Origin: a bacterium
Lineage (GTDB): Bacteria > Patescibacteriota > UBA1384 > XYA2-FULL-43-10 > JAKAMI01
Assembly (NCBI GenBank): GCA_021812945.1
Contig: JAKAMI010000002.1
Location: 1,047-65,046 of the forward strand
Reading direction: 5' to 3'
DNA: 64,000 nt
The notes under the pieces are model-generated. The model was not told where the DNA came from. It made no database searches and saw only the letters and a list, made by a program, of their open reading frames with translations. Each line of letters starts with the position of its first letter. Positions within the stretch are counted from its first letter, which is position 1. A program made the position numbers and the translations under genes. Of this stretch, positions 3,390 to 57,761 are shown one piece after another.

Positions 3390-4856
3390 ATGAAAGAGAT
3401 TAAAATATTGGCCATAGAAACAAGTTGCGATGAAACCTGCGCAGCCGTTATCATGGCTGCCTCCTCGCGAAAGTACAAAAACTACAAAAGTACAAACATT
3501 GGAGAATGCCCGGTCGTTTTGTCGAATGTGGTGAGTTCGCAGATCGACCTGCACGCAAAAACCGGCGGCATCGTGCCGGAGGTGGCGAGTCGAGCGCATA
3601 TAGAGGTGATCGTCCCTGTTATTCGCGAAGCGCTCATAATAGCAAACCCTAAACTCGAAATTCTAAACTCTAAAAAAATTCAAAAATCTAAAAATAAGAT
3701 CAGCGCTGTGTTAGAGAACAATTTAGTAATTCAGCAATACAGCAATGAAATTTCGGAAATGCTTTCCGAAATTACCCACATCGCCGTGACTTCCGGGCCG
3801 GGGTTGGTCGGGGCGCTGTTGGTAGGGTTTAACACGGCCAAAACATTGGCGTATTCGCTGAATATTCCCATCGTGCCAATTAACCATATTGAGGGACACA
3901 TTTACTCGGCGATGGCCTCTGTGCCTGTCATTGCTAGGGCCGGTGTTTCGGCCCGTGGCAATCTAGCAAAGGAGATTGCCAGGTCGCCCCTCCTCGCAAT
4001 GACAAAGGGAGGGGTCAACTTCCCCATCTTGGCTTTGACAGTCTCGGGTGGTCATACTTCGCTTACCATAATGAAAGACCATGGAGTCTATGAAAACATC
4101 GGCCACACCATAGATGATGCAGCGGGCGAGGCATTTGATAAAGTGGCCAAGTTATTGGGACTAGGCTACCCGGGAGGACCGGCTGTTTCTAAACTCGCTG
4201 AAGAGTTTAGAAACAGAATAATCAATAATCAAGAGACAATAACCAAACAAATTCCAAATTCTAAATCTCAAAATCTCAAACCGGACTTCCGGACTTCCGG
4301 ACTTTCGGACTCGGGACTTGTATTTCCCCGTCCGATGCTCAATTCGGGAAACTTTAACTTTTCTTTCTCAGGACTCAAAACCGCGGTTCTAAATATAGTC
4401 CATAGTCTAAAAGTCCAAGAGTCCAAAGGTGAAAATTCGAAGACTTTAGGACTTCCGAACTTTCGGACTCAGGACTGGCGACCGGAGGTCGCCTTCGCTT
4501 TTGAAGAGGCGGTGGTGGATGTGCTGGCGACCAAGACGATGAGAGCGGTACTTAAATACAAACCGAAAACCGTGGTTCTAGCCGGCGGGGTGGCGGCGAA
4601 TAATCGATTGAGATCAGAACTACAGGGAAGGATTGAGACATATAATCACGGTCATCCTGAACTTGTTTCAGGATCCCATGGTAGACTGGAGGATTCTTCG
4701 GCTGCGCCTCAGAATAATGTGTCGTTGTTGATGCCTCCTCCGGAAATGTGTGGGGACAATGCGGCCATGATCGGACTGGCGGCGTACTACCACATTTTCC
4801 GCGGAGAAACTCCAAAATGGCACGAAATAAGTCTTGATGCCAATGCAAAACTGTAA
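3390..4856 (+). CDS. tsaD: tRNA N6-adenosine threonylcarbamoyltransferase TsaD (Kae1/Gcp family), about 150 aa longer than usual because of repeat insertions
   Basis: MKEIKILAIETSCDETCAAV N-terminus and GPGLVGALLVG motifs. An SD (ttggaggat) precedes the ATG at 3390; the ORF track starts at an upstream TTG. Inserts: [72 protein letters not shown]. Confidence 0.85.
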   Translation: MKEIKILAIETSCDETCAAVIMAASSRKYKNYKSTNIGECPVVLSNVVSSQIDLHAKTGGIVPEVASRAHIEVIVPVIREALIIANPKLEILNSKKIQKSKNKISAVLENNLVIQQYSNEISEMLSEITHIAVTSGPGLVGALLVGFNTAKTLAYSLNIPIVPINHIEGHIYSAMASVPVIARAGVSARGNLAKEIARSPLLAMTKGGVNFPILALTVSGGHTSLTIMKDHGVYENIGHTIDDAAGEAFDKVAKLLGLGYPGGPAVSKLAEEFRNRIINNQETITKQIPNSKSQNLKPDFRTSGLSDSGLVFPRPMLNSGNFNFSFSGLKTAVLNIVHSLKVQESKGENSKTLGLPNFRTQDWRPEVAFAFEEAVVDVLATKTMRAVLKYKPKTVVLAGGVAANNRLRSELQGRIETYNHGHPELVSGSHGRLEDSSAAPQNNVSLLMPPPEMCGDNAAMIGLAAYYHIFRGETPKWHEISLDANAKL

Positions 4857-11436: not shown

Positions 11437-12456
11437 TTAACGCTTTTCCAAAACCTCGCCCAGGGCTTCCTGCCAGGGGCGCATGGTGAGGCCGTATTTA
11501 TTCAACTTGGCTTTGGTGAGGTAGGAGTAGGCCGGGCGTTTGGCGGGGGTGGGGTACTCGGCGGTGGCGATAGGTTTGAGACCTATTTTAACCTTCGACT
11601 GTTTAAAAATTTCCTTGGCAAAATCATACCAAGAAGCTTCGCCCTCGCCGGTGGCGTGGTAGATACCGTAGGGAAGAGGGGCATTGCTTGATTGTTTCAT
11701 CCTGCTCCGCTCTTCTGGAGCTATGAGGGACACGGTTGCTTCATTGTTGTCATCCTGAACTTGTTTCAGGATCTCTGCGTTTGAATTTTGGGACCCTGAA
11801 ACAAGTTCAGGATAACGGTTTCGGAAGATAATTTCAGCAATCACCCCAACCAGGTCGCCGGTGTAGGTGGGGGAGCCGATTTGGTCGCTGACGACCGAGA
11901 TTGAATCGCGTTCTTTGGCCAGTCTCAGCATCGTCTCAACGAAATTCGAGCCAGGATGACCCTGTGGCAACTCGCCGTAAAGCCAGGCGGTGCGTATAAT
12001 ATAATACTTGTCGCAGACTGCCTGAATCGCTTTTTCGCCTTCCAACTTGGTTTGGCCGTAGAAGTTGACCGGATCGGTCGGATCGTCCTCATTTATTGGG
12101 ACGTTACCGGTACCCGGGAAGACGTAATCGGTCGAAATATACAACAACGTCGTATCTTTTTCGGCGGCGATTTCAGCCAGGTTTTTGGTTCCGACGGCAT
12201 TCACTTTATAGCAAAGTTCCCGACCCTCACCCTCGGCCTTGTCGACCTGGGTATAAGCGGCGGCGTGAATAATGAAGTCGGGCTTTTCTCTTGACAAAAC
12301 CCGCTCAATCATCGTTTTGTCGGTAATATCCATCTCCTCGGAGTCAGTGAGTATTAGTTGGTAGTCAGTCGTCGGTTGTCGGTTGTCAGGGACCTGAAGT
12401 CGTTCGATCAATTTGTTCCCGAGCTGGCCCTTGGCGCCGGTGATTAGAATTTTCAT
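11437..12456 (-). CDS. rfbD: dTDP-4-dehydrorhamnose reductase (RmlD) carrying two in-frame repeat insertions
   Basis: MKILITGAKGQLG Rossmann start at the ATG 12456, with an SD supplied by the upstream palindromic element. Inserts are VPDNRQPTTDYQL (ggttgtc repeats) and a roughly 100 nt double gtcatcctgaacttgtttcaggat palindrome encoding [23 protein letters not shown]. Confidence 0.8.
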   Translation of the reverse strand: MKILITGAKGQLGNKLIERLQVPDNRQPTTDYQLILTDSEEMDITDKTMIERVLSREKPDFIIHAAAYTQVDKAEGEGRELCYKVNAVGTKNLAEIAAEKDTTLLYISTDYVFPGTGNVPINEDDPTDPVNFYGQTKLEGEKAIQAVCDKYYIIRTAWLYGELPQGHPGSNFVETMLRLAKERDSISVVSDQIGSPTYTGDLVGVIAEIIFRNRYPELVSGSQNSNAEILKQVQDDNNEATVSLIAPEERSRMKQSSNAPLPYGIYHATGEGEASWYDFAKEIFKQSKVKIGLKPIATAEYPTPAKRPAYSYLTKAKLNKYGLTMRPWQEALGEVLEKR

Positions 12457-29716: not shown

Positions 29717-29856
29717 GGGCGGTTTACACCCCAATCCAAAAAACCCTTGACTAATTTCTGTCATGCTGAATTTATTTCAGCATCTTAAGACAAGTGCGTA
29801 ACATTTTGGGATTCTGAAACAAGTTCAGAATGACGAAAAGAAAAGTTTCCGGAATA

Positions 29857-30573: not shown

Positions 30574-31953
30574 TTACTCCTCGTGCCAGTTGACTATTTG
30601 GTAGCTTTTGCTCTTGGGAAAATAAGGCGGCGGAGTATAGAGGAGCCGGTTGTCGTAGTTGTAACCGGCATGGGCGAAACCCCAATAAACAATACCGCTG
30701 CTGGTCCATTGGAACTCTAATCCCCCTTGTTGGGTAATGGCGCCGTAAATATTCAAAGTACCCTTAAGGGGACCGGAAGACTGAAAATAGGCCCGGCCGT
30801 TTTTGGCCAGCATAGCGGCGTCGATGGTCAGGTCGTTGGGGCAGGTCGAAACGATGGGGATATCTTGGTTGGCAACCAACCCCAGCTTGGCAACGGAGTC
30901 GTTTTGAGCATAGGTGATATTGCCGTTAATAAAGATATTTTTACTTGAGACAAGAGTCATCTCCCGATTTTTGACTGTACCGTCGACCCAGACATTGTCG
31001 TCAAAAAACATGAGATTCCCGGCATATGCCTGGCTCGGAAGATAACTTTTTTCAATGTTTATTTGCCCGTAAGCCGCCGTATTACTCTTGTAACTACTGA
31101 CTTTAGTAATGCTGTATTGACTATCCGCCAGGGTTATGTGATAGCCCTGTTTGTTGCTATCGCCGTAGTATTGGTTTTGGGCTATCGCTTTGGACTTCAG
31201 ATCGTTAAAATCAATGTCGGCTAGATTGAACGGAGCAGCGCTATAGACTATCGGGGTCGTATCGAATTTACCCGGACCACCGGCACAGGGGCAAATACCG
31301 CCGGGGCAGTAAGAGTCACTGACCCATTTGGTGGTAAAAGTTGAGTCAATCGAGCAGGTTAGATTGGTTTTACCTTTGATCTCGCCGTAATTACGAATAC
31401 CTTTGTTCGAGGAGTTGACCCAGACGGGGCCGTTGATCACCTCCTGGGTATCGACATAAATCTCGTCGGTTAAAGAATTGATGAAAGCGTTGGCAAACGA
31501 GGGGATGGTCAGATCGGTCGTGATGGTTTTCCGAGTGGTGCTGCCGTTGACCGTTCCGGTAGATTTCAGTTTCACGATGTTGGTATCGTTGGTTGGATAG
31601 ATGAGGAGACTGTAATTACCTATGAGTTTGCCTGAGTTGTCGGTGTAATCATGAGAGTAAGGGCCGTAAGAACCATCCGGATTTAACTGCCGGCAGGCAT
31701 CGGCGGAATTGGCGCTGCAGTTGTCCCAAAAATCGTTCGGATTGTGCTCCAGATGCCAAAGATAATAGTTGATGCCGGCTTCGGCAATGTTGACTGCCGA
31801 AACCTGGCGGCTGTAGAGGCTGGAACGTTTGAGACTGGCGGAGACCATCGCCAGAAGCGCTACCGCCATGATTAAAAGTATGGTGGTAGCCATCAGAATC
31901 CAAGGGAGAAAAGTAGCAGATTTGAAAGGAGTTTTGAGTCTGATTGGTCTCAT
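30574..31953 (-). CDS. Large membrane-anchored secreted protein of the pilus operon (putative minor-pilin or tip-associated component)
   Basis: N-terminal TM helix, Asn/Thr/Ser-rich beta-rich body. Last gene of the T4P operon. Confidence 0.4.
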   Translation of the reverse strand: MRPIRLKTPFKSATFLPWILMATTILLIMAVALLAMVSASLKRSSLYSRQVSAVNIAEAGINYYLWHLEHNPNDFWDNCSANSADACRQLNPDGSYGPYSHDYTDNSGKLIGNYSLLIYPTNDTNIVKLKSTGTVNGSTTRKTITTDLTIPSFANAFINSLTDEIYVDTQEVINGPVWVNSSNKGIRNYGEIKGKTNLTCSIDSTFTTKWVSDSYCPGGICPCAGGPGKFDTTPIVYSAAPFNLADIDFNDLKSKAIAQNQYYGDSNKQGYHITLADSQYSITKVSSYKSNTAAYGQINIEKSYLPSQAYAGNLMFFDDNVWVDGTVKNREMTLVSSKNIFINGNITYAQNDSVAKLGLVANQDIPIVSTCPNDLTIDAAMLAKNGRAYFQSSGPLKGTLNIYGAITQQGGLEFQWTSSGIVYWGFAHAGYNYDNRLLYTPPPYFPKSKSYQIVNWHEE

Positions 31954-31972
31954 AAGCCAGATTAGTCTAATG

Positions 31973-42980: not shown

Positions 42981-43522
42981 TAGGAGAGATGGGGATATCG
43001 GTTTGCCCACCCGATAAACACTAAGCATTTTATAAATCGTTAAAAGAAGTGGTTTGTAAATAGTTTAGTCCCCAGCTCTCCCATCGAAATAAGTTAAAAG
43101 TTGAAAGTTATAAAGTAACGAGTAAACTAATAACAGAAACAAAAAAACAGAAATTCAGAAAATCGAAACAAACAGAAAATCAGAAAAGAGCACATTGACA
43201 AAAGGATGGGAAAAAATAGGGAAGTTGCAAAAAGCAACCTTAGTGTAAAATACAATTTTATATTAGGGATGCCACAAAGCTAGAGATCCTTCGCCGATTC
43301 TTTCAGAATCGCTCAGGATTTCGCTAAAAGCGAAACTTTGCGACACCCCTAATGGGCGTAAGCTTTACGACCGGGTCATAATTTAAAATTATATTATCCC
43401 GACAAGTCGATTACCAGTTTGCGCCCAAACCAAGAAACATCCAGCAATGAGGGTGTTTTTTGGTTTAGAAAATCAAATTGGTCTAATTAGACTAATTGGT
43501 CAAATTGGTCTAATATTCAGGT

Positions 43523-44089
43523 ATGGGTGGTCACCAGGATCTGATAGTCTATCAGCAAGCGGTGCTGATTTTTGATCTCAACGTGCAGTTTTGCCGTCGG
43601 TTTTTGGACCCCATCAAAGATCGTCGAACTATCGAGCAAATGGAGCAAGCGTCTCGCAGTAGCAAGCAGAATATCGTTGAAGGCTCTCTTGGAAAAAGCC
43701 TGAAAATGAACATAAAGTTGACGGGAGTTTCACGGGCGTCGTACGGAGAATTGCTAGAAGACTACAAGGATTTTTTGCGGATACGGAATCTGAAGCTATG
43801 GCCCAAAGAAGATGAAAGAGTTCGGGAAATTCGAAGCATGCGTGTCCAAACCAATAAGGCAAATGAGTCTAATGCGGCCGATTGGTCCAATTGGACAAAT
43901 GATGCGGAAAGATTCGCCAATTTAATGGTAACTTTGATCTCTAAAGAGAACTATCTTTTGGATTGTCTTTTACGGTCTTTGGAAAACAAGTTTGTAACCG
44001 AGGGCGGTTGTGGTGAAAATTTGTTTAAGAAAAGGCTAGAGGAAAGGAATAGGACCAATAGGACAAATTGGTCCAATCGGGTCAATTAG
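43523..44089 (+). CDS. Four-helix-bundle protein (23S rRNA intervening-sequence protein family, TIGR02436/PF05635-like) with C-terminal repeat-derived extension
   Basis: LIVYQQAVLIFDLNVQFCRRF...NIVEGSLGKSLKMNIKLTGVSRASYGELLEDY matches the family. The tail contains ccaattggtc-repeat-encoded NWSNWTND/TNRTNWSNR. Confidence 0.6.
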   Translation: MGGHQDLIVYQQAVLIFDLNVQFCRRFLDPIKDRRTIEQMEQASRSSKQNIVEGSLGKSLKMNIKLTGVSRASYGELLEDYKDFLRIRNLKLWPKEDERVREIRSMRVQTNKANESNAADWSNWTNDAERFANLMVTLISKENYLLDCLLRSLENKFVTEGGCGENLFKKRLEERNRTNRTNWSNRVN

Positions 44090-44111
44090 TCTAATAGGTC
44101 AAATAAGACTA

Positions 44112-46187
44112 ATGGGTATTTTGGAGCAACTTAATCCTGAACAACGTGAAGCTGTGACCACCACCAGTGGTCCAGTTTTAGTGCTCGCGGGTGCAGGCAG
44201 CGGCAAAACTAGAGCGTTGACCTACCGGATTGCTTATCTGATTCAAGAAAAACGGGTTTCACCGTATTCGATACTAGCCGTGACCTTCACTAATAAGGCA
44301 GCGCACGAAATGAGTAACCGGGTTGCCCGCCTGCTCGCGTTTTCGTTGAATAAGACCAATTGGCCAAATGAGTCTAATTTGACCAATAAACTTCCTTGGC
44401 TGGGGACGTTTCACTCCATTTGCGTCAAAATTCTAAGACGCGAAGCCAACCACCTGGGTTACGAGCGCAGCTTCACTATCTACGACGATCAAGACCAGCA
44501 AGCGGTCATCAAAAAGATCTTACGAGATCTGCAGCTCGACCCTAAGAAAACTTCACCATCATCGATATCTTACTTTATCTCCGGGGCCAAAGCTGAACTT
44601 ATGACAGCGGCCGAATATACCAAGTATGCAACTTATGGCTTTCAGAAAATTGTCAGTGAGGTCTATTTCGCTTATGAAAAAGCTCTGAAGCGAGCCGAGG
44701 CAATGGACTTTGACGACCTAATTCTAAACTGCGTGCGCCTATTTCGTGAGTTCCCGGAGCTGTTAGAAAAATATCAGCGTCAGTTTCAATATATTTTAAT
44801 CGACGAGTACCAGGACACCAACCACGCCCAATACGTTTGGGCTAAATTGCTGGCTTCAGACCATCACAATATTTGTGTGGTGGGCGATGATTTTCAGTCG
44901 ATCTATTCTTGGCGCGGGGCGAATTTTCGCAACATTTTAGACTTCGGCAAAGATTATCCGGAAGCTAAAATTATCAAAATGGAGCAGAACTATCGCTCGA
45001 CCAAATCAATTCTGGGTGCGGCGCAGGGGGTGATAGAAAAGAATAAGGATCGAACCGACAAGAAACTTTGGACCGAGAACAAAGAGGGGGTGCCGGTAAC
45101 GGTTTTCGAGGCGGGGAGCGACCGTGACGAAGCGGACTTTGTCACTCGCGAAATTCGCGCTCTGAGAATGAACAGCCTAAATTACTCAGATTTTGCCATT
45201 TTATACCGTACTAATGCTCAGTCGCGGCAGTTTGAGGAGACTTTTATCCGCTACGGCATCCCGTACCAAATTATCGGCGGAGTCAGCTTCTACCAACGGC
45301 GCGAAGTGAAGGATGTCATCGCTTACCTGCGCTACATTCACAATCCGCGAGACCTGGTCTCGTTGGAGCGGATTATAAATGTACCGGCTCGGGGGATTGG
45401 GCCAAAAACAGCGGAGCTGCTTTTGGAAGTCAAAAGTCAAAAGTCAAAAGTCAAAAGTATGGAAGAGCTACCAGATAAGGTCAGAAAGTTTGAGGAGATG
45501 ATTACCAGTTTGCGTGAATACTATCAGAAACATTCCATAGTCGAGCTAATAGATACCTTGGCTCGAATGACGGGGTATAAGGATTATCTGCTGGACGGGA
45601 CGCCGGAGGGAGAGGCGAGGTGGGAAAACATTGAGGAGCTGATGAACATTGCGGCGGCACAAGCCGCCCCCTACGAAAATACAAAAGAAGGCACGAAAGT
45701 ACGAAAGTACAAATCTGGAGACGAACCGGTACCTCAGAATACCATTCCAGCCTCTCGCTCCGTCATTCCTGCGAAAGCAGGAATCCAGACTGGATCCCAG
45801 ATCGAGTCTGGGATGACGAGTAGCCGCGAGACGGATAATCAACTCGAGGAGTTTCTTGAGCGGGTTAGTTTGTATCAAGACTCGGAAAAATTGGACAAAG
45901 ACCGCGATGCGGTGGTTTTAATGACTTTGCACGCAGCCAAGGGCTTGGAATACGATACGGTTTTCATCGCCGGTCTGGAGGAAGGTATTTTCCCGCACTC
46001 CAGAAGCTTGACCGAAAAAGATCAGTTGGAGGAGGAGAGACGGCTTTGTTACGTCGGCATGACCCGGGCACAGAAAAGGCTATACCTGCTATATGCCCGC
46101 CAGCGGCTTTTTCATGGCAACATAATGGCGTCTCTCCCCTCAAGATTTTTGGGGGAAATACCAGCAGAGTTCACAGACATTCTGTGA
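44112..46187 (+). CDS. uvrD: ATP-dependent DNA helicase UvrD/PcrA with repeat insertions
   Basis: LNPEQREAV, AGAGSGKTRALTYR, TFTNKAAHEM, ILIDEYQDTN, VGDDFQSIYSWRGA. Inserts NKTNWPNESNLTNKLP, EVKSQKSKVKSMEE, YENTKEGTKVRKYKSGDEPVPQNTIPASRSVIPAKAGIQTGSQIESGMTSS. Confidence 0.85.
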   Translation: MGILEQLNPEQREAVTTTSGPVLVLAGAGSGKTRALTYRIAYLIQEKRVSPYSILAVTFTNKAAHEMSNRVARLLAFSLNKTNWPNESNLTNKLPWLGTFHSICVKILRREANHLGYERSFTIYDDQDQQAVIKKILRDLQLDPKKTSPSSISYFISGAKAELMTAAEYTKYATYGFQKIVSEVYFAYEKALKRAEAMDFDDLILNCVRLFREFPELLEKYQRQFQYILIDEYQDTNHAQYVWAKLLASDHHNICVVGDDFQSIYSWRGANFRNILDFGKDYPEAKIIKMEQNYRSTKSILGAAQGVIEKNKDRTDKKLWTENKEGVPVTVFEAGSDRDEADFVTREIRALRMNSLNYSDFAILYRTNAQSRQFEETFIRYGIPYQIIGGVSFYQRREVKDVIAYLRYIHNPRDLVSLERIINVPARGIGPKTAELLLEVKSQKSKVKSMEELPDKVRKFEEMITSLREYYQKHSIVELIDTLARMTGYKDYLLDGTPEGEARWENIEELMNIAAAQAAPYENTKEGTKVRKYKSGDEPVPQNTIPASRSVIPAKAGIQTGSQIESGMTSSRETDNQLEEFLERVSLYQDSEKLDKDRDAVVLMTLHAAKGLEYDTVFIAGLEEGIFPHSRSLTEKDQLEEERRLCYVGMTRAQKRLYLLYARQRLFHGNIMASLPSRFLGEIPAEFTDIL

Positions 46188-47315: not shown

Positions 47316-47392
47316 CGATGTTGTCATTCCCGCTTTAGGCGTGCGAATCCACTAATAAATTAGGAATCGGGTAGATTCCCGCCTTCGCGGGA

Positions 47393-48499
47393 ATGACGGA
47401 AAAAGAGGTAGGGATAATCAAAATAAAAGTTACTGAAATCAAACAATTTCTGAGCGAAAATCAGACTTGGGCCAAGAAGAGTTTTGGCCAGCATTTTTTG
47501 GTTGACGAGAATGTTTTAAGCAAAATTGTGGCCACGGCCGAATTATCAAAATCAGATCGAGTCTTGGAGATCGGTCCGGGCTTGGGGGTCTTAACCGATC
47601 AACTAATTGAACGTGCAGGTGAAGTTGTAGCTATCGAAGCAGACCGGTTCTTAGCCAGTTGTCTGGCTAAGAAATATCAAACCCTACAACACGTCATTCC
47701 AGTGAAAGCTGGAATCCAGGGATTAGAAAAAACTGGATCCCAGATCAAATCTGGGATGACAGAGAAAGATGACTTTGGACTTTCAACTTTCAACTTTCAA
47801 CTAATTGAAGGTGACGCTTTGAAAGTCATCGACAGCCTGGAATTTAAAAGGGGATTTCGATCGAAACCTTATAAAGTGATCGCCAATATTCCATATTCGA
47901 TAACATCAAAATTATTAAGGCTGCTACTGGAAGAATATCAACCAACCTCAATCACTTTTTTGGTGCAAAAAGAGGTGGCGGAGAGGGTTTGCGCCAAGCC
48001 CGGTCGGATGAGCCTTTTATCATTATCCGTCCAATACTTCGGCACCCCGAAGATCATCGCCACCGTTCCGGCCGGAGCTTTCTGGCCACAACCAAAAGTT
48101 GAGTCAGCAATTTTGCACATCAAGTTGACCACGATACACACACCTGCCTGCCGGCAGGCAGGGAAATCAATTCACAGAGAGGACACAGAAAATTTAACCC
48201 TGCCCACCTCCGAGGAGTCAGAGCCCACCTCGGAGGTGTTTACGGGCAAAAATAATGAAACAATGAAACAATCTAGCAATGAGCTATTCAAACTGGCCAG
48301 AATCGGTTTAGGTTCCAAGCGGAAAATGCTGGCGCACAATTTATCGACCGGCTTAAGTCTTCCGCGGGAAGAAATTGTTGATATAATAAAATCGGTGGGA
48401 CTTAAGGAAACAGTCAGAGCGCAGGAGCTAAGCGTTAAGGAGTGGGAAGAATTATCACGCTCCCTCGCGAATCTACAAATTTGGCAAAAATACAAATAA
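47393..48499 (+). CDS. rsmA: 16S rRNA (adenine1518/1519-N6)-dimethyltransferase RsmA/KsgA with two composite repeat insertions
   Basis: SFGQHFLVDENVL...VLEIGPGLGVLT...IANIPYSITS. Inserts VIPVKAGIQGLEKTGSQIKSGMTEKDDFGLSTFNFQL and HTPACRQAGKSIHREDTENLTLPTSEESEPTSEVFTGKNNETMKQSSNE. Confidence 0.85.
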   Translation: MTEKEVGIIKIKVTEIKQFLSENQTWAKKSFGQHFLVDENVLSKIVATAELSKSDRVLEIGPGLGVLTDQLIERAGEVVAIEADRFLASCLAKKYQTLQHVIPVKAGIQGLEKTGSQIKSGMTEKDDFGLSTFNFQLIEGDALKVIDSLEFKRGFRSKPYKVIANIPYSITSKLLRLLLEEYQPTSITFLVQKEVAERVCAKPGRMSLLSLSVQYFGTPKIIATVPAGAFWPQPKVESAILHIKLTTIHTPACRQAGKSIHREDTENLTLPTSEESEPTSEVFTGKNNETMKQSSNELFKLARIGLGSKRKMLAHNLSTGLSLPREEIVDIIKSVGLKETVRAQELSVKEWEELSRSLANLQIWQKYK

Positions 48500-50011: not shown

Positions 50012-50105
50012 ACCATAAACAGCCTAAAGGCTGGGCTCAAGGTTTTCGTGGGAGTCTAAGCTTTAGCTTGTTTTCAGCCTAAAGGCTGGGCTACAAAATA
50101 AAGAG
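50010..50105 (+). repeat. Second locus of the cagcctaaaggctgggctcaag stem-loop repeat family (2 units)
   Basis: Same units as 9230-9420. Confidence 0.55.
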
Positions 50106-50777
50106 CCCACGCTTCAGCGTGTTAGACAGATAGTTCTCTTTCAACCCGTAATCCGAGGCGTACGGCCTCGGACTTCGGTTCGTATGGCCAGGGCGGTGAC
50201 CCTAGACGAGTTCGGTGAGGGGTTTCCCCAGGGTGAATTCCATGAGCTCCCTCAGTCTGACGAAGTGCAGCCTGGTCGCACCGTCCTCGATGCATCGGTG
50301 ACAGGCATTCCCGGCTCCCGGAAGTCCGTGGCAAAAGAGCCGATGGGTCAAGGCACAGAAGATTTCAGTGAACGGCTCGGATGCCGAAAAGCTGCTTGTT
50401 AGTGCCGGTGCGACTGGCACATTGTCTCGAGCGAGGGCTTCGGGGTGTGTGACCCACTGCCCGCTTGCTGCGATCAGTTCCGGGGCAACAATCTTCACGA
50501 AGGGTAGAATGTCTTGCAACCACGATGAGTGGCGAGACACTGATGACGCATTGGGATGTTGCTGGTGTGTGGCTGTATTGGGCAAAGGTGATCCCTCCCG
50601 GATCGGCGATATGGGGTACTTAAGAATAATGATAAAGAGTTTAGTTGACCAATACAACCCCTATTTTTGGATGATTGCTCAAAAGCCAATTTCTGCTATA
50701 GTAAAAATAATGAAAATTGATCAATCTATAGGGTAGATTCCCGCTTTCGCGGGAATGACAACAAACGCGTAAATCGT

Positions 50778-51488
50778 ATGAAAATCGATCAACCTGTCTC
50801 GATCATTATCAAGGCGTACAACGAAGAAGCCAATCTTGGCCGGGTCTTGAAAGTTTTGGCAAAAATCGATTGGATCGATGAAGTCATCGTGGTAAACGAC
50901 GGTTCTGAAGACGGGACAGCCGAAGTTGCCAAGAGTTTTGAAAATGATAAAATCCGCCTGGTTTCAAATCCGAAAAACCTCGGCATGGGCGGAGCTATGG
51001 CGACCGGTGTCAAAAATGCCAGACACAATCTCGTTTTATTTCTCGATGCCGATCTGGTGGGACTAACCGAACGGCATCTTTTGGCGATCTTGGCGCCCAT
51101 AATATTTACGAAGGAGGCCGATCTGGTTCTGGGAGTTTTTACTCTGAAGGATTTGTCTCACGATACCGGGACCAAGATCGCCAATCGCTTTTCTCCGCTT
51201 ATCTCCGGTCAGCGGGCGGTTTGGAAGTCGTGTTTGCCGGACCTGCAGAAAATCAGCGACAGCCGTTACGGCGCCGACCTTCTGATTGCCAAGCACATCC
51301 CCAAACAACGACGCGAGGTTGTGAAGCTGGAGGGTCTGTCTCAGGTAACCAAAGAAAAAAAGGCCAACGGCGACTTAATGAAAGCCATCCAAGCCAGAAT
51401 CAAAATGTACAAAGAAGTGATTGCAGTGATGGGGGAAAATAAGTCAAAAGTCAAAAGTAAAAATTTCAATTCAAAATTTAATAATTAA
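50778..51488 (+). CDS. Family 2 glycosyltransferase
   Basis: VSIIIKAYNEEANL...VVNDGSEDGT...LFLDADL. Confidence 0.8.
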   Translation: MKIDQPVSIIIKAYNEEANLGRVLKVLAKIDWIDEVIVVNDGSEDGTAEVAKSFENDKIRLVSNPKNLGMGGAMATGVKNARHNLVLFLDADLVGLTERHLLAILAPIIFTKEADLVLGVFTLKDLSHDTGTKIANRFSPLISGQRAVWKSCLPDLQKISDSRYGADLLIAKHIPKQRREVVKLEGLSQVTKEKKANGDLMKAIQARIKMYKEVIAVMGENKSKVKSKNFNSKFNN

Positions 51489-53837: not shown

Positions 53838-53909
53838 TTGTTGCTGTGTTTGGTGATTTCCGCTTAGACAGCGGTTTTTTGTTTGGGTGATATTTGCTAT
53901 CATTTAGCC

Positions 53910-56282
53910 ATGACCGCTCTCAAACTTGATTCACCCATCCAATACCTAAAAGGTGTGGGGCCGAAGCTGGCTGAGAAATTAAAAAGGCTGGAAATAGAAA
54001 CTCCGGCCGATCTTTTGTACCATCTGCCGCGGACCTACATTGACTACTCGCAAACGGTCCCGATCAAATCCACCCGCATCGGCGATCTTGTCGTTATTAA
54101 AGGAAAAATATCGGATCTCAGCATCAAACGCACGCCGCGGAAATGGATGGCCATCGTCGAGTTTTTGGTATCGGATCATTCAGGCTCGATCAAAGTTGTC
54201 TACTTCAACCAGCCCTACCTCAAAGACACCTTTAAAAACGGCGAGGAACTCTATTTTTACGGTAAAATTAACTATGACTATTCCGGCTCGATTAAGTCTC
54301 TCAACAGTCCGGACTTCAGCCGCGAGCCGAAGATCGTACCCATTTACCCGGAAACAAAAAACGTCAACAGTAAATACCTAAACAAGTTAGTAGTCGGTTG
54401 TCTGTCGTCAGTTGACAGCGCCAGAGAATATTTGCCCGAGGAAATAAAAACTCAAGCTAAGCTGGTGAATATCGAGCAAGCCCTGAGGTTTCTCCACCAA
54501 CCGGCCAAAATGGCCGAGGTTGGGTCGGGGCGCCGGCGCCTAGCCTTTGACGAACTCTATTTAACGGCTCTGCAAACGCAAATTTTTCGACAACAACGTC
54601 GGGAGCAAAAGGCGGTACGGGTCAAGATTGATAACAAAGAGCTGGTAAGTTTTGTCGACCAGTTGCCGTTTAAACTAACCGCTGCCCAAAAAAGGGCGGC
54701 TTGGCAAATCTTGCTTGACCTAAGGGGTCAAACTAAGTCCGGAGTCCAAGAGTCCAAGAGTCCAAGAGGGAAGACTTCCGGACTTCCGGACTTTAGGACT
54801 TTGGACTGGATTCCTCCGATGAATCGGCTGCTCAATGGTGATGTCGGTAGCGGCAAGACGGTGGTGGCGGCTATGGCAGCCTATGCGGTCATAAAGGCCG
54901 GTTACCGAGTCATCGTCATGGCGCCAACCGAAGTATTGGCTTTTCAACATTACAACACCTTTCAAGAAATTTTGGCTAAATACGACATCAGTGTTGGCCT
55001 GGCGACAAGTTCTAGAAAGGAAACATCACTTTCTGTCATTCCTGTGAAAGCAGGAATCCAGACGAAGAAAACTACTGGATCCCGGATCAAGTCCGGGATG
55101 ACGGACAAAAACAATAAAACAATGAAGCAATTGAACCATGTTTTTGAGACATGTGACCTCCTGGTTGGTACCCATGCGGTACTAGAAGATACTTTTAATC
55201 ATGAAAAGGTGGCGCTGGTGGTGGTTGATGAACAACACCGGTTCGGAGTCGAGCAGAGGGCAAAGATACAAAGAATGACAAGCTCCAGGAACGTCATTCC
55301 AGCCCCTCATCCTGTCATTCCAGCGAAAGCTGGAATCCAGAAATCATCAAAAGCCACTGGATCCCGGATCAAGTCCGGGATGACAAATGAGGACAAAGGA
55401 ATCCAAGCTCACTTCCTTTCGATGACCGCCACACCAATACCAAGAACGCTGCAGCTGACGCTTTACGGCGACTTGGATGTTTCGGTCATCGATGAGATGC
55501 CGAAAGGGCGTAAAGAAATCGAGACTAAGGTTTTTGCCGATCGTGATCGTGAAAAAGCTTATGACCTCATTAGGGATCAGGTAAAGTTGGGGAGACAAGT
55601 GTTCATTGTCTGCCCCTTGATCGAGGAAAATCAGGAGCAAGGTGGGCAAAGACAGTCTTTGCAAAAGGAGCAAAGACTGGCTTTACCCGAATTAGATCGG
55701 AAAACAGTGGTAGCGGAACAGAAAAGACTCAAAGAACAGGTATTTCCGGACTTAAAGATTGGGCTAATGCACGGGAAACTCAAGCCCAAGGAGAAAGAAG
55801 TAGTGATGAATGAATTTACCAGTCGCAAACTAGATATATTAGTCAGTACCTCGGTGGTCGAGGTAGGTGTCGATGTGCCGAATGCCAGTGTGATGATGGT
55901 CGAAAATGCCGAAAGATTCGGCCTAGCTCAGTTACACCAGTTCCGCGGCCGGGTCGGTAGGGCGGAGCATCAATCTTACTGTTTATTAATGTCATCCAGC
56001 CCTCGTCCGGAAAACATCAAACGCTTGAAAGCTATGGAAACGCATGCTTCCGGGTTTAAGTTGGCGGAGATTGATTTGGAGCTTCGTGGACCGGGAGTTA
56101 TTTACGGCAAAGAGCAATCGGGCTTCGGTGACTTGAGGCTAGACTGGGTTTCTGATATATTTCTACTAGAGGAAGCGCGTGAAGCGGCCAAGAAAACACT
56201 GACCTTGAATCCGAGTCTGTCGTCCTGGCCGGGACTGCGAGAAAAACTTGGCGAGAAGTTCGGAGAAGCACATTTAGAATAA
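53910..56282 (+). CDS. recG: ATP-dependent DNA helicase RecG with three composite repeat insertions
   Basis: LKGVGPKLAEKL (HhH), wedge domain, GDVGSGKTVVA, DEQHRFGV, helicase motifs. Inserts KSGVQESKSPRGKTSGLPDFRTLDW, SVIPVKAGIQTKKTTGSRIKSGMTDKNNKTMKQLNH and VIPAPHPVIPAKAGIQKSSKATGSRIKSGMTNEDKG. Confidence 0.85.
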   Translation: MTALKLDSPIQYLKGVGPKLAEKLKRLEIETPADLLYHLPRTYIDYSQTVPIKSTRIGDLVVIKGKISDLSIKRTPRKWMAIVEFLVSDHSGSIKVVYFNQPYLKDTFKNGEELYFYGKINYDYSGSIKSLNSPDFSREPKIVPIYPETKNVNSKYLNKLVVGCLSSVDSAREYLPEEIKTQAKLVNIEQALRFLHQPAKMAEVGSGRRRLAFDELYLTALQTQIFRQQRREQKAVRVKIDNKELVSFVDQLPFKLTAAQKRAAWQILLDLRGQTKSGVQESKSPRGKTSGLPDFRTLDWIPPMNRLLNGDVGSGKTVVAAMAAYAVIKAGYRVIVMAPTEVLAFQHYNTFQEILAKYDISVGLATSSRKETSLSVIPVKAGIQTKKTTGSRIKSGMTDKNNKTMKQLNHVFETCDLLVGTHAVLEDTFNHEKVALVVVDEQHRFGVEQRAKIQRMTSSRNVIPAPHPVIPAKAGIQKSSKATGSRIKSGMTNEDKGIQAHFLSMTATPIPRTLQLTLYGDLDVSVIDEMPKGRKEIETKVFADRDREKAYDLIRDQVKLGRQVFIVCPLIEENQEQGGQRQSLQKEQRLALPELDRKTVVAEQKRLKEQVFPDLKIGLMHGKLKPKEKEVVMNEFTSRKLDILVSTSVVEVGVDVPNASVMMVENAERFGLAQLHQFRGRVGRAEHQSYCLLMSSSPRPENIKRLKAMETHASGFKLAEIDLELRGPGVIYGKEQSGFGDLRLDWVSDIFLLEEAREAAKKTLTLNPSLSSWPGLREKLGEKFGEAHLE

Positions 56283-56441
56283 TTCATTTGAGTAGGCCAA
56301 CACAGACATCATTTACAGATTAAGCACAGATAGAGAAAACATTTTAACAAGTCATCCTGAACTTGTTTCAGGATCCCGGATTTCTTTGATGGGATTCCGG
56401 ATCAAGTCTGGAATGATGGACGGATCTGGGGAGATTTCGGA

Positions 56442-56924: not shown

Positions 56925-57063
56925 TTGAAAGTAGAAAGTTTATAAAGTTTGTAAAGTGTTAATTTGTTGAAACCATACCAAGTCTGTCATTCTGAGCGAC
57001 TAGCGAAGAATCTTTGAAAGATCCTTCCTCCGTCAGGATGACATTTACAAGAGAAATAAATAA

Positions 57064-57257: not shown

Positions 57258-57761
57258 ATGTATGTAAAACGAAATCCTCTGGGCTACAAAAATCTTCGTA
57301 CTTGGCAACAGGCCAATGAAATATTTGATCTAACGGAAAGATACGTCCAAACTCTGCCGAAGTTTCACCCCAAAACCGGTCAGAAAATGGCCGATACCGC
57401 TGACCATATGCTCCGCTCGGCACGGTCGCAGGTACGAAACATTGAAGAGGGATATTCTCGCTCCGAGACTAAGCAATACATTGACTTCTTGGGATTCTCC
57501 AAAGGCTCGGGTGAGGAGCTTTTGGGAGACTTCGAGAAATGTCGCAAAGATGGGCTGGGTGATATCGAATTGGCCGATCGAGCCATTTTTTTGTCCAAGG
57601 GGGAAGGGAAAATGCTCCACAACCAGATGGAGGCTTTGCAACAGAAACGATTGAAGGACGGGGCGATGTCTGTAAATGAAAGATACAAATTGGCCAAGGA
57701 AGAAGATGTAAGGAGGGATGAGGAGTTTGAAAAGAAAGTCAGAGAGATCCTTGGGAAGTGA
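57258..57761 (+). CDS. Four-helix-bundle protein (23S rRNA IVS protein family), second paralog
   Basis: LRTWQQANEIFDLTERYVQ...RNIEEGYSRSETKQYIDFLGFSKGSGEEL; SD agggagggaaaATG; 108 nt downstream of tRNA-Leu. Confidence 0.6.
   Translation: MYVKRNPLGYKNLRTWQQANEIFDLTERYVQTLPKFHPKTGQKMADTADHMLRSARSQVRNIEEGYSRSETKQYIDFLGFSKGSGEELLGDFEKCRKDGLGDIELADRAIFLSKGEGKMLHNQMEALQQKRLKDGAMSVNERYKLAKEEDVRRDEEFEKKVREILGK

What the first reader, a model, noticed from the sequence alone, without database searches (positions are those of the whole stretch)
45655..45830. Two-hairpin GTCATTCC element (gtcattccNGCGAAAGCNGGAATcc + ggatcccagatcNaNtcNgggatgac) inserted in frame in uvrD, rsmA and twice in recG
Copies at 45757-45815 (uvrD, peptide SVIPAKAGIQTGSQIESGMTS), 47695-47765 (rsmA, VIPVKAGIQ...GSQIKSGMTE), 55034-55100 and 55290-55385 (recG, VIPVKAGIQ...GSRIKSGMTD/N), with non-coding relatives at 47318-47400, 50735-50762 and 56345-56420. 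The conserved peptide VIP[AV]KAGIQ-x-GS[QR]I[EK]SGMT across three DNA-repair or rRNA enzymes suggests constraint either at the RNA hairpin level or at the peptide level. The ATTCCC-N8-GGGAAT core resembles the Neisseria dRS3 repeat shape.
Basis: seen in the sequence. Interest (0 to 1): 0.65.

Follow-up and report, generated by a model that had tools for sequence, protein, structure and literature searches.

The report
Known hairpin repeats inserted inside genes
The two-hairpin element is a back-to-back pair of a known selfish DNA hairpin repeat (the Neisseria dRS3/NTS and Rickettsia RPE-6 kind, cut by small Ssn nucleases), here inserted in frame into surface loops of housekeeping genes of an uncultured ultra-small (Patescibacteria-like) bacterium; this is a new host for a known phenomenon.

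Summary
Four copies of a 56-71 nt element sit in frame in UvrD, RsmA and RecG (twice). Chance expectation is zero.

Each arm has the defining features of a CGTC-tagged REP, also called an NTS or Ssn-related motif (SRM). These are a (C/T)GTC tag, an 8-bp stem starting AT, a 4-5 nt loop and a C-CAG tail. The two arms face tags-outward, the published "HH dimer" layout.

A covariance model built only from hairpins flanking ssn (GIY-YIG nuclease) genes in unrelated metagenomes scores the window arms at 26-48 bits.

The closest syntenic relative lacks all four insertions. It carries an ssn gene bracketed by the same hairpins.

The constraint is on the nucleic acid, not the peptide:
- Free stem positions pair in 86/88 and 85/88 copies, using all four pair types.
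- 14 of 18 third-codon positions are invariant among the window copies.
- The identical element is read in five frames in other genomes.

The inserted peptides model as disordered loops.

In-frame CGTC-REP dimers, notably in DNA-repair genes, were described in 2013. The Ssn link was described in 2025. This is a new member of a known kind. The Patescibacteria-like host and the high share of intragenic copies appear new.

The parts
45762..45817 (+). SRM/CGTC-REP tags-outward (HH) heterodimer, 56 nt with a 1-nt spacer, in frame in UvrD. Encodes VIPAKAGIQTGSQIESGMT.
   Evidence: Pattern match. Model R1 scores the arms 48.1 bits (45760-45789, +) and 27.2 bits (45789-45819, -). As single-stranded DNA it folds at -19.3 kcal/mol, z=-5.6. 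Translation. The insert falls between PcrA 1PJR residues 519 and 528.
47693..47760 (+). HH heterodimer, 68 nt with a 13-nt spacer, in frame in RsmA/KsgA. Encodes VIPVKAGIQGLEKTGSQIKSGMT.
   Evidence: R1 scores 37.8 and 25.9 bits. The insert falls between KsgA 6IFS residues 93 and 95. The hairpin pair is absent from the syntenic relative's RsmA.
55035..55102 (+). HH heterodimer, 68 nt with a 13-nt spacer, in frame in RecG (first copy). Encodes VIPVKAGIQTKKTTGSRIKSGMT.
   Evidence: R1 scores 39.1 and 30.3 bits. Absent from orthologue P0002. In the AlphaFold model residues 385-400 and 406-408 have pLDDT below 50 and no secondary structure.
55293..55384 (+). HH heterodimer (55314-55384, 16-nt spacer) preceded by a 21-nt half-hairpin 'stutter' unit (55293-55313). 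In frame in RecG (second copy), between helicase motifs II and III.
   Evidence: R1 scores 45.9 and 29.4 bits. Absent from P0002. Residues 474-503 have pLDDT below 50. The segment corresponds to a single residue of 1GM5.
47323..47397 (+). Intergenic dimer with a degenerate left arm and an intact right arm. Its terminal GGAATGAC holds the annotated rsmA start codon at 47393.
   Evidence: R1 scores 42.8 bits (47370-47399, -) and 15.9 bits (47321-47353, +). Sequence. The relative's ATG corresponds to ATA in the window.
50732..50761 (-). Solo SRM hairpin (ATTCCCGCGAAAGCGGGAAT, an exact dRS3 shape) 16 nt upstream of the GT2 gene.
   Evidence: R1 scores 41.7 bits, E=8e-10. Sequence.
56351..56417 (+). 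Intergenic dimer between recG and a ComEA-like gene. The left arm is of the 'CTGAACTTGTTTCAG' type and the right arm is a degenerate GATCAAGT type ending in ATGAT.
   Evidence: The fold is weak (z=-1.4).
4651..4718 (+). Related hairpin dimer of another arm type, in frame in TsaD. Encodes [23 protein letters not shown], in a different reading frame relative to the tag.
   Evidence: (PF00814, matched in three separate stretches).
11749..11816 (+). Related hairpin homodimer in frame in RmlD, a minus-strand gene. Encodes [23 protein letters not shown].
   Evidence: (PF04321, matched in two stretches).
44112..46187 (+). Host gene uvrD/pcrA, intact ORF of 691 aa.
47393..48499 (+). Host gene rsmA/ksgA, intact ORF of 368 aa. 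The relative's protein is 297 aa.
53883..56282 (+). Host gene recG, intact ORF. The called product is 790 aa, starting at 53910. The relative's protein is 680 aa.

Best explanation
**What it is.** Each copy is a pair of inverted DNA hairpin repeats of the CGTC-tagged REP superfamily. The same motif is published as Neisseria dRS3/NTS, R. conorii RPE-6 and the 'Ssn-related motif' (SRM).

**Arm anatomy.**
- The left arm reads (C/T)GTC-ATTCCnGy-GAAA-GCnGGAAT-C-CAG. It has an 8-bp stem and a 4-nt loop, which is the CGTC-1 type.
- The right arm, read on the other strand, is GTC-ATCCCrGA-yTyGA-TCyGGGAT-C-CAG. It has an 8-bp stem and a 5-nt loop, which is CGTC-2-like.
- The tags face outward and a variable spacer of 1-16 nt separates the arms. 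This is the published 'HH heterodimer' layout.

**How it works: shown elsewhere.** This motif is bound as single-stranded DNA by Ssn, a ~95-aa single-domain GIY-YIG nuclease. Ssn cuts a few nucleotides 5' of the tag. It does not act on duplex DNA, RNA or the reverse strand.

**How it works: inferred here.**
- In a tags-outward pair, each strand carries one cleavable motif at the 5' edge of the element. Ssn would therefore cut at both outer borders, on opposite strands.
- ssn genes sit between exactly such a pair, like a tiny insertion sequence. The ORF-less pairs are most likely its non-autonomous relatives.
- These pairs spread as selfish DNA, and their sequence is held by hairpin formation plus Ssn recognition.

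**Why they sit in frame.** In this gene-dense genome (about 84% in long ORFs) only insertions that keep the reading frame and land in tolerant surface loops survive. The encoded 19-24 residues are passengers that protrude as disordered loops. They are not a functional domain.
For: **Membership in the family.**
- Every defining feature of CGTC REPs and of the NTS is present: tag, AT-start 8-bp stem, 4-5 nt loop, and a C followed by CAG after the palindrome.
- Model R1 was built only from 55 hairpins flanking ssn genes in unrelated metagenomes. It scores the window's left arms at 37.8-48.1 bits, the right arms at 25.9-30.3 bits and the two intact CGTC-1 arms outside the in-frame copies (47370-47399 and the solo hairpin 50732-50761) at about 42 bits.

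**Nucleic-acid constraint.**
- The two stem positions left free in the search pattern form Watson-Crick pairs in 86/88 and 85/88 copies. About 29 and 43 are expected if the positions were independent. Hairpin 1 uses all four pair types and hairpin 2 uses G-C, C-G, A-T and one T-A.
- In the window the covarying changes fall on synonymous Pro and Ala codons, and on a Gln/Arg change paired with a synonymous Ser change.
- 14 of 18 third-codon positions are invariant among the four copies.

**Not a peptide module.** The identical heterodimer is translated in several frames in real genes:
- +0 in YchF.
- +1 in a TOTE primase-helicase and in a DHH protein.
- +2 in LigD.
- -0 in a CoA-ligase-like protein.
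Most of the 84 copies found outside the window lie in no long open frame.

**Insertion, not ancestral sequence.**
- The syntenic relative L087 lacks all four insertions.
- Only 8 of 120 Patescibacteria-like RecG sequences carry repeat-derived peptides. About five of these are SRM-type, in different frames, at a few hot-spot loops.
- Solved homologues have 1-16 residues at these positions.

**Link to ssn.**
- In L087 a 95-aa GIY-YIG gene is bracketed by GTCATCCCAGCGAAGGCTGGGATCCAG and CTGGATTCCAGGTCAAGCCTGGAATGAC.
- Among 80 metagenome ssn loci, 48 have a tags-outward hairpin upstream, 51 downstream and 37 on both sides. Control windows give 3-5%.
- The spacing is sharply peaked: 37-39 nt from tag to ATG and 27 nt from stop codon to the outer end.
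- Among 42 ssn loci on viral-classified contigs, 18 are flanked on both sides.

**Tolerated.** The RecG model has a confident core (mean pLDDT 81.8). The inserts have pLDDT below 50 and no secondary structure.

**Literature.** In-frame CGTC-REP dimers encoding 20-30 aa, many in DNA-repair genes, are described in PMC3733652. Ssn biochemistry and the IS-like NTS-ssnA-NTS layout are described in PMC11893778.
Against: - No ssn gene was found in the 64-kb window or in the 6 kb beyond it. Whether this genome encodes Ssn is unknown.
- No target-site duplication or clean empty site could be defined. The nearest relative is too diverged at the nucleotide level.
- All assemblies of this species are near-identical and show no presence/absence polymorphism.
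- Ssn has never been shown to move DNA. One ssn orthologue examined sits in a single fixed chromosomal context.
- All four copies of this subtype share one frame and one orientation. Chance would not often give this, so a local preference cannot be excluded (peptide tolerance, strand bias or copying between genes).
- The cross-genome copies were retrieved with an exact pattern. They are informative only at the positions left free in that pattern.
Confidence: 0.8

Rival explanations
1. Peptide-level module: VIP[AV]KAGIQ...GS[QR]I[EK]SGMT is a selected protein motif, for example an interaction or localisation tag, added to nucleic-acid enzymes.
For: All four window copies use the same frame and orientation. 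The hosts are DNA- or RNA-handling enzymes.
Against: - The same DNA is read in frames +0, +1, +2 and -0 in Pfam-confirmed genes elsewhere, and lies outside long open frames in most loci.
- Synonymous sites are as conserved as non-synonymous sites.
- Related dimers in TsaD and RmlD of the same window are read in another frame.
- The insert models as disordered.
- Orthologues function without it.
- The peptides match no NCBIfam family.
Confidence: 0.03
2. RNA-level element: the hairpins are kept because they act in the mRNA, for example in stability, RNase III processing or translational pausing.
For: - The stems covary and would also form in RNA.
- Two of the four window copies have a T opposite a G at the closing pair, which would be a G-U wobble in RNA.
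- Di Nocera et al. argued that many REPs act as RNA.
Against: - Ssn binds this motif as single-stranded DNA and not as RNA.
- The conserved unpaired tag and tail give each hairpin a DNA-strand orientation. Each arm of the pair is 'forward' on a different strand, so only one arm could be sense in any transcript.
- At the free stem positions no G-T combination occurs among 88 copies.
- No Rfam family matches.
Confidence: 0.07
3. The hairpins are REPIN-like repeats mobilised by an enzyme other than Ssn, such as a Y1/RAYT-type or other transposase. Their link to ssn would then reflect only that Ssn targets or regulates them.
For: - The architecture parallels REP doublets.
- Ssn has only been shown to cut, not to transpose.
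- One ssn gene sits in a fixed context.
- An ISL3 transposase lies beside one dimer at 28394-29834.
Against: - The tag is CGTC/TGTC, not GTAG.
- No Y1 transposase appears among the window's genes.
- Di Nocera et al. found no transposase associated with CGTC REPs.
- ssn genes are bracketed at fixed distances by the hairpins, at 46% against 3-5% in controls.
Confidence: 0.1
4. Domesticated function: the intragenic hairpins serve as Ssn cut sites that restrict replacement of essential genes by incoming single-stranded DNA during natural transformation, as proposed for the NTS in Neisseria.
For: - Ssn lowers transformation by NTS-bearing DNA in N. meningitidis.
- The window encodes type IV pilus-like ATPase and platform proteins and a ComEA-like HHH_3 protein.
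- 2 of 4 DNA-metabolism genes carry dimers against 3 of 49 other ORFs (p=0.04, not corrected for gene length).
Against: - No ssn gene is seen in the sequence available.
- Insertions are sporadic among orthologues.
- In Neisseria the NTS is rarely intragenic, at 2%.
- The sample is very small.
Confidence: 0.1

Closest known systems
CGTC-tagged REPs (families CGTC-1 to CGTC-4), Di Nocera et al. 2013, BMC Genomics 14:522 (PMC3733652)
   Same: The shared features are a CGTC/TGTC tag, an 8-bp stem beginning AT, a 4-5 nt loop and a CCA tail. Tags-outward (HH) dimers predominate, and dimers whose two arms differ (heterodimers) are also described for REPs. In-frame intragenic dimers encode 20-30 aa, sometimes twice in one gene. 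Many lie in DNA synthesis and repair genes, including UvrD/Rep helicases.
   Different: The host is a Patescibacteria-like lineage. The parts of that survey read here name no such host. A much larger share of units is intragenic, roughly 13 of 35 in this window by a hand-curated count. The specific CGTC-1 plus loop-CTTGA heterodimer recurs with identical arms in loci from at least seven named lineages.
Neisseria dRS3/NTS and Ssn-related motifs (SRM) with the SsnA GIY-YIG ssDNA nuclease, Chenal et al. 2025, Nat Commun 16:2388 (PMC11893778)
   Same: The left arm fits CGTCATTCCCGCGMAVGCGGGAATCYRG apart from compensated stem changes. The GTC before the palindrome and the C after it, both critical for Ssn, are conserved. 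ssn genes are flanked on both sides by the hairpins in 46% of loci here, against the published 42%.
   Different: In N. meningitidis only 2% of NTS copies are intragenic and they cluster around surface-protein genes. Here they sit in frame inside housekeeping genes. No ssn gene is seen in the available sequence of this genome. Cleavage was not tested for these arm variants.
Rickettsia palindromic elements (RPE; Ogata et al. 2000 and 2002)
   Same: These are short palindromic repeats inserted in frame into functional housekeeping genes, where the peptides appear to be tolerated passengers. According to Di Nocera et al., RPE-6 and RPE-4 are CGTC-1 and CGTC-4 repeats.
   Different: RPE-1 is longer (100-150 bp) and unrelated in sequence. 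The window peptides match no NCBIfam family. No direct sequence comparison with Rickettsia copies was made here.
Neisseria intergenic mosaic elements (NIME: repeat units flanked by dRS3 inverted repeats). This comparison rests on my own knowledge.
   Same: Two inverted dRS3-type hairpins bracket a short variable segment.
   Different: NIMEs are intergenic arrays with 50-150 bp internal units. Here the spacer is 1-16 nt and the unit lies within coding sequence.
REP/REPIN doublets mobilised by RAYT (IS200/IS605-like Y1 transposases)
   Same: Both are paired inverted hairpins with an unpaired tag, are thought to act as single-stranded DNA, and include a gene flanked by its own repeats.
   Different: The tag is GTAG rather than CGTC. 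The associated enzyme is a HUH/Y1 transposase rather than a GIY-YIG nuclease. No RAYT is present in the window.

Membership tests
CGTC-tagged REP superfamily (Di Nocera 2013) | Unpaired terminal tag CGTC (TGTC in many units) | tested here: met
   The tag is cGTC in the uvrD and rsmA copies and tGTC in both recG copies. The right arms, read on the minus strand, begin cGTC or tGTC.
CGTC-tagged REP superfamily (Di Nocera 2013) | Stem of 8-9 bp starting with A-T pairs in the first and second positions; loop of 4-5 nt; 3-nt tail CCA | tested here: met
   The left arm is ATTCCnGy/GCnGGAAT with loop GAAA and tail CCA(G). The right arm is ATCCCrGA/TCyGGGAT with a 5-nt loop and tail CCA(G).
CGTC-tagged REP superfamily (Di Nocera 2013) | Predominantly organised as HH dimers (tags outside), with a short variable spacer | tested here: met
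   All four in-frame copies and 47323-47397 have tags outside, with spacers of 1-16 nt.
NTS / Ssn-related motif (Chenal 2025) | Similarity in sequence and structure to hairpins that flank ssn genes | tested here: met
   Model R1, built from 55 ssn-flanking hairpins of unrelated metagenomes, gives 10 window hits at E below 1e-4. Scores are 25.9-48.1 bits.
NTS / Ssn-related motif (Chenal 2025) | Conserved GTC before the palindrome (needed for cleavage) and C immediately after it (needed for binding) | tested here: met
   Both are invariant in all eight arms of the four copies. Their importance is stated.
NTS / Ssn-related motif (Chenal 2025) | Presence of an ssn (cd10448 GIY-YIG) gene in the same genome, typically flanked by the motif | tested here: inconclusive
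   tblastn finds no ssn in the window or in the 6 kb beyond it. The syntenic relative L087 has ssn bracketed by the hairpins. The rest of this genome could not be searched.
NTS / Ssn-related motif (Chenal 2025) | Bound and cleaved by Ssn as single-stranded DNA only | not testable with these tools
   This needs biochemistry.
Neisseria dRS3 | ATTCCC-N8-GGGAAT palindrome | tested here: met
   The match is exact at 47375-47394 and 50737-50756. The in-frame copies have ATTCCn-N8-nGGAAT with a compensated change at the sixth pair.
Rickettsia palindromic elements | In-frame insertion in otherwise intact, conserved genes | tested here: met
   The ORFs are intact and all helicase and methyltransferase motifs are kept.
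Rickettsia palindromic elements | Sequence relatedness to a named RPE family | not tested
   The equivalence RPE-6 = CGTC-1 is taken from PMC3733652. No Rickettsia sequence was compared here. The insert peptides gave no NCBIfam hit.
MITE (non-autonomous transposon) | Terminal inverted repeats, small size, no ORF of its own | tested here: met
   GTCATyCC...GGrATGAC and CCAG/CTGG pair as an outer and an inner stem. The element is 56-71 nt.
MITE (non-autonomous transposon) | Target-site duplication | tested here: inconclusive
   No duplication is evident. Flanks show only T at -1 and A at +1 and +2. Alignment with the relative is too diverged to define borders.
MITE (non-autonomous transposon) | A cognate autonomous element with the same ends that encodes the mobilising enzyme | tested here: inconclusive
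   Hairpin-ssn-hairpin cassettes with fixed spacing are common. Ssn has not been shown to transpose DNA.
REP/REPIN-RAYT | GTAG tag and an associated Y1 (RAYT) transposase | tested here: not met
   The tag is CGTC/TGTC. No Y1_Tnp family appears among the window's gene products.

The most novel reading that the evidence does not exclude
The ORF-less hairpin pairs are non-autonomous derivatives of a miniature insertion sequence (hairpin-ssn-hairpin, about 360 bp) whose GIY-YIG nuclease Ssn is the mobilising enzyme. This would be a transposition or homing mechanism for single-stranded DNA hairpins based on a GIY-YIG nuclease. It would be distinct from HUH/Y1 systems. It would still be colonising coding sequence in Patescibacteria-like genomes. 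Chenal et al. raised the IS analogy but did not test it. The evidence here neither proves nor excludes it. That evidence is the fixed-distance bracketing of ssn, the presence/absence differences between syntenic relatives, and identical heterodimers in distant phyla.
Probability: 0.35. Interest if true: 0.65.

Novelty: new member of a known kind. Interest (0 to 1): 0.3.

Why it matters
This case extends a known class of selfish hairpin repeats (CGTC REPs, dRS3/NTS, SRM) to an ultra-small, gene-dense bacterium.

- **Density.** At least five housekeeping proteins in 64 kb carry in-frame hairpin pairs: TsaD, RmlD, UvrD, RsmA and RecG.
- **Annotation.** The odd peptides VIPAKAGIQ...GMT, SFxRKxES and DSRFRGND are translated repeats, not domains. 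They should be masked in homology searches and protein-family building.
- **Mechanism.** The case gives natural examples that could be used to test whether Ssn nucleases mobilise these hairpins, and how proteins tolerate disordered loop insertions.

Tried and rejected
- **Literal-sequence literature search.** Searching for GTCATTCC, VIPAKAGIQ and similar strings returned only primer noise. Keyword searches for MITEs with GIY-YIG were also unproductive.
- **Rfam.** There is no family at the elements. A sub-threshold FtrB hit at 50706-50777 (30 bits against a threshold of 66) was disregarded.
- **NCBIfam on the insert peptides.** No hit.
- **Peptide census.** The search for homologous proteins on a 45-aa insert found no scorable candidates (some searches were parameter errors). 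phmmer of a 32-aa insert against 1.84 billion proteins gave only 8 hits, too few for a host-gene survey.
- **Strain-level empty sites.** Five assemblies of the species are identical or 99.99% identical, and protein variants differ by single residues.
- **Nucleotide-level borders and target duplication.** Alignment against the relative L087 is too diverged to show them.
- **Mobility of ssn from multiple contexts of one identical protein.** P0197 showed a single conserved context.
- **Exact heterodimer in viral contigs.** None found.
- **Intein, intron or excision.** Rejected. Copy lengths are 56, 68, 68 and 71 nt (each 2 mod 3), so exact removal would break the frame, whereas read-through keeps it.
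- **Assembly artefact.** Rejected.


Full report
**Observation.** The four in-frame copies exist as described. The full two-hairpin pattern matches at 45762-45817, 47693-47760, 55035-55102 and 55314-55384, all on the + strand. None of 100 shuffles gave a match. GTCATTCC alone occurs 11 times against 2.5 expected.

The host ORFs are UvrD/PcrA (44112-46187), RsmA/KsgA (47393-48499) and RecG (53883-56282) by Pfam. Their translations contain the quoted peptides.

The non-coding relatives at 47323-47397, 50732-50761 and 56351-56417 are also real. The same sequence is found in five independent ENA and NCBI assemblies, identical or differing by a single base, so this is not an assembly artefact.

**These are insertions.**
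- Against solved homologues the segments are extra. RecG residues 379-423 and 463-503 correspond to 16 and 1 residues of T. maritima RecG 1GM5. RsmA 99-133 corresponds to 1 residue of B. subtilis KsgA 6IFS. UvrD 515-574 corresponds to 8 residues of PcrA 1PJR.
- The closest RecG orthologue (P0002, 76% identity over aligned columns, 680 aa against 790-799) lacks both hairpin pairs.
- That orthologue lies in a syntenic locus, L087 (G5 protein, RsmA, Nramp, GT2, VanW, RecG, ComEA-like). Its RsmA is 297 aa against 368 and lacks the pair.
- Among 120 Patescibacteria-like RecG sequences, 8 carry repeat-derived peptides. About five of these are SRM-type. They occur in different frames (WIPGQARDD, DSRLRGND, AGMT) at a few hot-spot loops.
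- An AlphaFold2 model of the window RecG has mean pLDDT 81.8 and pTM 0.77, with a confident core. Residues 385-400, 406-408 and 474-503 have pLDDT below 50 and no secondary structure. The inserts are predicted to be disordered surface loops.

**Anatomy.** The element is a pair of inverted hairpins with their tags outside.
- The left arm is (C/T)GTC-ATTCCnGy-GAAA-GCnGGAAT-C-CAG.
- The right arm, read on the minus strand, is GTC-ATCCCrGA-yTyGA-TCyGGGAT-C-CAG.
- The spacer is 1, 13, 13 or 16 nt, A-rich, and not conserved.
- As single-stranded DNA, three of the four copies fold in the minimum-energy structure into an outer GTCAT/ATGAC stem enclosing the two hairpins. The rsmA copy shows only the two hairpins at minimum energy and has the outer stem only in its centroid structure. 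In the three copies with longer spacers a CCAG/CTGG stem also closes the spacer. Energies are -15 to -19 kcal/mol, with z from -4.5 to -5.6.

**A larger family in the window.** At least 13 dimers of 56-76 nt are bounded by GTCATyCy...rGrATGAC, with several arm types.
- Dimers of another arm type lie in frame in TsaD (4651-4718, peptide GHPELVSGS...). A further pair lies at 3940-4010.
- Another lies in RmlD (11749-11816, a minus-strand gene, peptide YPELVSGS...QVQDD).
- Both are read in a different frame relative to the tag.
- So five housekeeping genes in 64 kb carry such inserts.
- By a hand-curated count, roughly 13 of about 35 hairpin units are intragenic. About 84% of the window lies in long ORFs.

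**Which level is constrained.**
- A scan of 185,579 species-representative genomes found the exact heterodimer in 81 stretches. The list is probably capped.
- The hosts include Patescibacteria groups (Parcubacteria, Saccharibacteria, Staskawicz-, Doudna- and Roizmanbacteria), Thermodesulfobacteriota and other 'Deltaproteobacteria', Alphaproteobacteria (Azospirillaceae, Sphingomonadales, Micavibrio), Gammaproteobacteria, FCPU426, Nitrospirota and Bacteroidota.
- In the 88 copies, the stem positions left free in the pattern form Watson-Crick pairs in 86 (hairpin 1: G-C 37, C-G 31, T-A 10, A-T 8) and 85 (hairpin 2). About 29 and 43 are expected if the positions were independent.
- In the window, the covarying changes fall on synonymous third positions (CCT/CCA Pro with GCA/GCT Ala), or pair a Gln/Arg change with a synonymous Ser change. 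Fourteen of 18 third-codon positions are invariant among the four copies.
- Elsewhere the identical DNA lies mostly in no long open frame.
- Where it lies in Pfam-confirmed genes it is read in four frames: +0 (YchF), +1 (TOTE primase-helicase; DHH protein), +2 (LigD) and -0 (CoA-ligase-like). A -2 case rests on one unconfirmed long ORF.
- The conservation is therefore at the nucleic-acid level. The peptide is a by-product.

**What the hairpins are.**
- In L087 a 95-aa GIY-YIG gene (PF01541, E=1e-16) lies in the Nramp-GT2 spacer. It is bracketed by GTCATCCCAGCGAAGGCTGGGATCCAG, which ends 14 nt before the ATG, and by CTGGATTCCAGGTCAAGCCTGGAATGAC, which starts 4 nt after the stop.
- This protein has more than 1,700 relatives at 60-72% identity among the listed hits, in many phyla.
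- In 80 metagenome loci encoding it, a tags-outward hairpin lies within 120 nt upstream in 48, downstream in 51 and on both sides in 37. Control windows of the same loci give 3-5%.
- The distances are sharply peaked: 37-39 nt from tag to ATG and 27 nt from stop to the outer end.
- Eighteen of 42 loci on viral-classified contigs are also flanked on both sides.
- A covariance model was built only from 55 of these ssn-flanking hairpins. Against the window it gives 37.8-48.1 bits for the left arms, 25.9-30.3 bits for the right arms and about 42 bits for the two intact CGTC-1 arms outside the in-frame copies (47370-47399 and the solo hairpin 50732-50761). That is ten hits at E below 1e-4.

**Comparison with the literature.** Two papers already describe this system.
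- Di Nocera et al. 2013 (PMC3733652) defined CGTC-tagged REPs. The features are a CGTC or TGTC tag, an 8-9 bp stem starting AT, a 4-5 nt loop, a CCA tail and mostly HH dimers with tags outside.
- They equated CGTC-1 with Neisseria dRS3 and R. conorii RPE-6.
- They reported in-frame intragenic copies, mostly dimers encoding 20-30 aa and sometimes two per gene.
- They found many in DNA synthesis and repair genes, including UvrD/Rep helicases, and found no dedicated transposase.
- Chenal et al. 2025 (PMC11893778) redefined about half of the dRS3 copies as the oriented NTS, CGTCATTCCCGCGMAVGCGGGAATCYRG, and generalised it as Ssn-related motifs.
- They showed that SsnA, a 94-aa single-domain GIY-YIG protein (cd10448), binds the motif only as single-stranded DNA and cuts a few nucleotides upstream. 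It does not act on duplex DNA, RNA or the reverse strand.
- The three bases before the palindrome and the C after it are critical.
- They reported that 71% of ssn homologues have a motif nearby and 42% have one on both sides. The NTS-ssnA-NTS layout looks like an insertion sequence. NTS are rarely intragenic (2%) in N. meningitidis. Rickettsia and Wolbachia are among the motif-rich genomes.
- Every defining sequence feature of both descriptions is met by the window arms.
- Neither paper, in the parts read or searched, mentions Patescibacteria. Chenal et al. do not mention in-frame insertion or MITE-like pairs. A library search found no paper on palindromic in-frame inserts in Candidate Phyla Radiation proteins.

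**Mechanism, with shown and inferred steps separated.**
- Shown elsewhere: Ssn recognises this hairpin in single-stranded DNA and nicks 5' of the tag.
- Shown here: the arms belong to that motif class. The pairs are lineage-specific insertions. ssn genes are bracketed by such pairs at fixed spacing. The constraint is on the DNA and not on the peptide. The inserts occupy loops that vary among orthologues and model as disordered.
- Inferred: in a tags-outward pair each strand has one cleavable motif at its 5' edge, so Ssn would cut at both outer borders on opposite strands.
- Inferred: the ORF-less pairs are non-autonomous relatives of the ssn cassette and spread as selfish DNA.
- Inferred: in this gene-dense genome, selection retains only frame-preserving insertions in tolerant loops.
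- Unknown: whether this genome has ssn. None is present in 70 kb.
- Unknown: how insertion occurs. No target duplication could be defined.
- Unknown: why all four copies of this subtype share one frame and orientation.

**Verdict.** The peptide-constraint reading is rejected. The RNA-constraint reading is unnecessary. The element is a new member, in a new host lineage and at unusually high intragenic density, of a known repeat class with a known partner nuclease. The open question is whether Ssn actually mobilises these hairpins.

Noticed in passing
window 13301, 25730, 27418-27459, 42475, 55293, 60994-61015; also L031, L067, L075, L076, L092, L125, L128, L158, L165: Tandem 'half-hairpin' units (tag, 5' half of the stem, then about 10 pyrimidine-rich nt) repeat every 18-21 nt just upstream of complete hairpins, up to four in a row. 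Distances between successive GTCATyC motifs peak sharply at 18-21 nt (26 of about 60 short distances). I did not see this in the parts of the two papers that I read. It may be a footprint of repeated cutting and repair upstream of the motif.
   Followed up: partly
window 45666-45714 (in UvrD); also 7096, 12462, 14942, 15913, 20149, 21550, 40424, 46195, 48461: A second, unrelated palindromic repeat of about 93 nt (TCGCAAATCTACAAAT...ATTTGTAGATTCGCGA, with AAGTACAAA motifs) has about 10 copies. One lies in frame in UvrD immediately upstream of the hairpin pair (peptide YENTKEGTKVRKYKSG), so the UvrD insert is composite.
   Followed up: no
window 43456-43515, 43851-43901, 44037-44132, 44338-44397, 1264-1314, 31931-31972: Runs of a 9-nt periodic repeat (GGTCnAATn) occur in and around a PF05635 gene and in frame in the UvrD N-terminal domain (FSLNKTNWPNESNLTNKLP). 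PcrA has a gap at that position.
   Followed up: no
window 4276-4318, 4404-4478 (TsaD); 54743-54815 (RecG): An 8-nt periodic inverted repeat (AGTCCAAG.../GACTTCCG...) is inserted in frame in TsaD and in RecG (SKSPRGKTSGLPDFRTLDWIP). It is absent from the closest RecG orthologue and has low pLDDT (residues 287-299).
   Followed up: partly
window 47393 (rsmA start) and 47423: The annotated rsmA ATG lies inside the hairpin terminus GGAATGAC. The position matching the relative's start codon (L087:1210, ATG) is ATA in the window. The repeat may therefore supply the start codon and a 10-residue N-terminal extension.
   Followed up: partly
window 50691-50705 and 50778-50792: The 15 nt ATGAAAATTGATCAA, nearly identical to the start of the GT2 gene, is repeated on the other side of the solo hairpin 50732-50761. 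This may be a long target duplication or a repair scar.
   Followed up: no
window 50012-50700: This is about 700 nt of GC-rich sequence with no called gene, no Pfam hit on either long ORF and no Rfam match. The RNA fold z-score is -3.1 on the minus strand and -1.5 on the plus strand (20 shuffles). The relative has the ssn cassette in this same intergenic slot. Its nature is unexplained.
   Followed up: partly
window 43523-44089 and 57258-57761: There are two genes of the 23S rRNA intervening-sequence protein family (PF05635, four-helix bundle). One is embedded in the 9-nt repeats. The other lies just after tRNA-Leu and a hairpin dimer (56986-57042).
   Followed up: no
window 28394-29611 and 29760-29834: An ISL3-family DDE transposase gene, the only transposase seen in the window, lies next to a hairpin dimer of the CTGAAnTTnTTTCAG arm type.
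   Followed up: no
window 48130-48290 (RsmA residues 246-295): RsmA carries a second insert of about 50 aa relative to KsgA 6IFS and the relative. It includes the GCCTGCCGGCAGGC hairpin peptide TPACRQAG, which also appears in other Patescibacteria-like RecG sequences and at about 15020 and 15990 in the window.
   Followed up: no
window, whole: Two of 4 DNA replication or repair genes (UvrD and RecG, but not DnaX or DnaB) carry hairpin dimers, against 3 of 49 other long ORFs (Fisher p=0.04, not corrected for gene length). This echoes the published excess of intragenic REPs in DNA-repair genes.
   Followed up: partly
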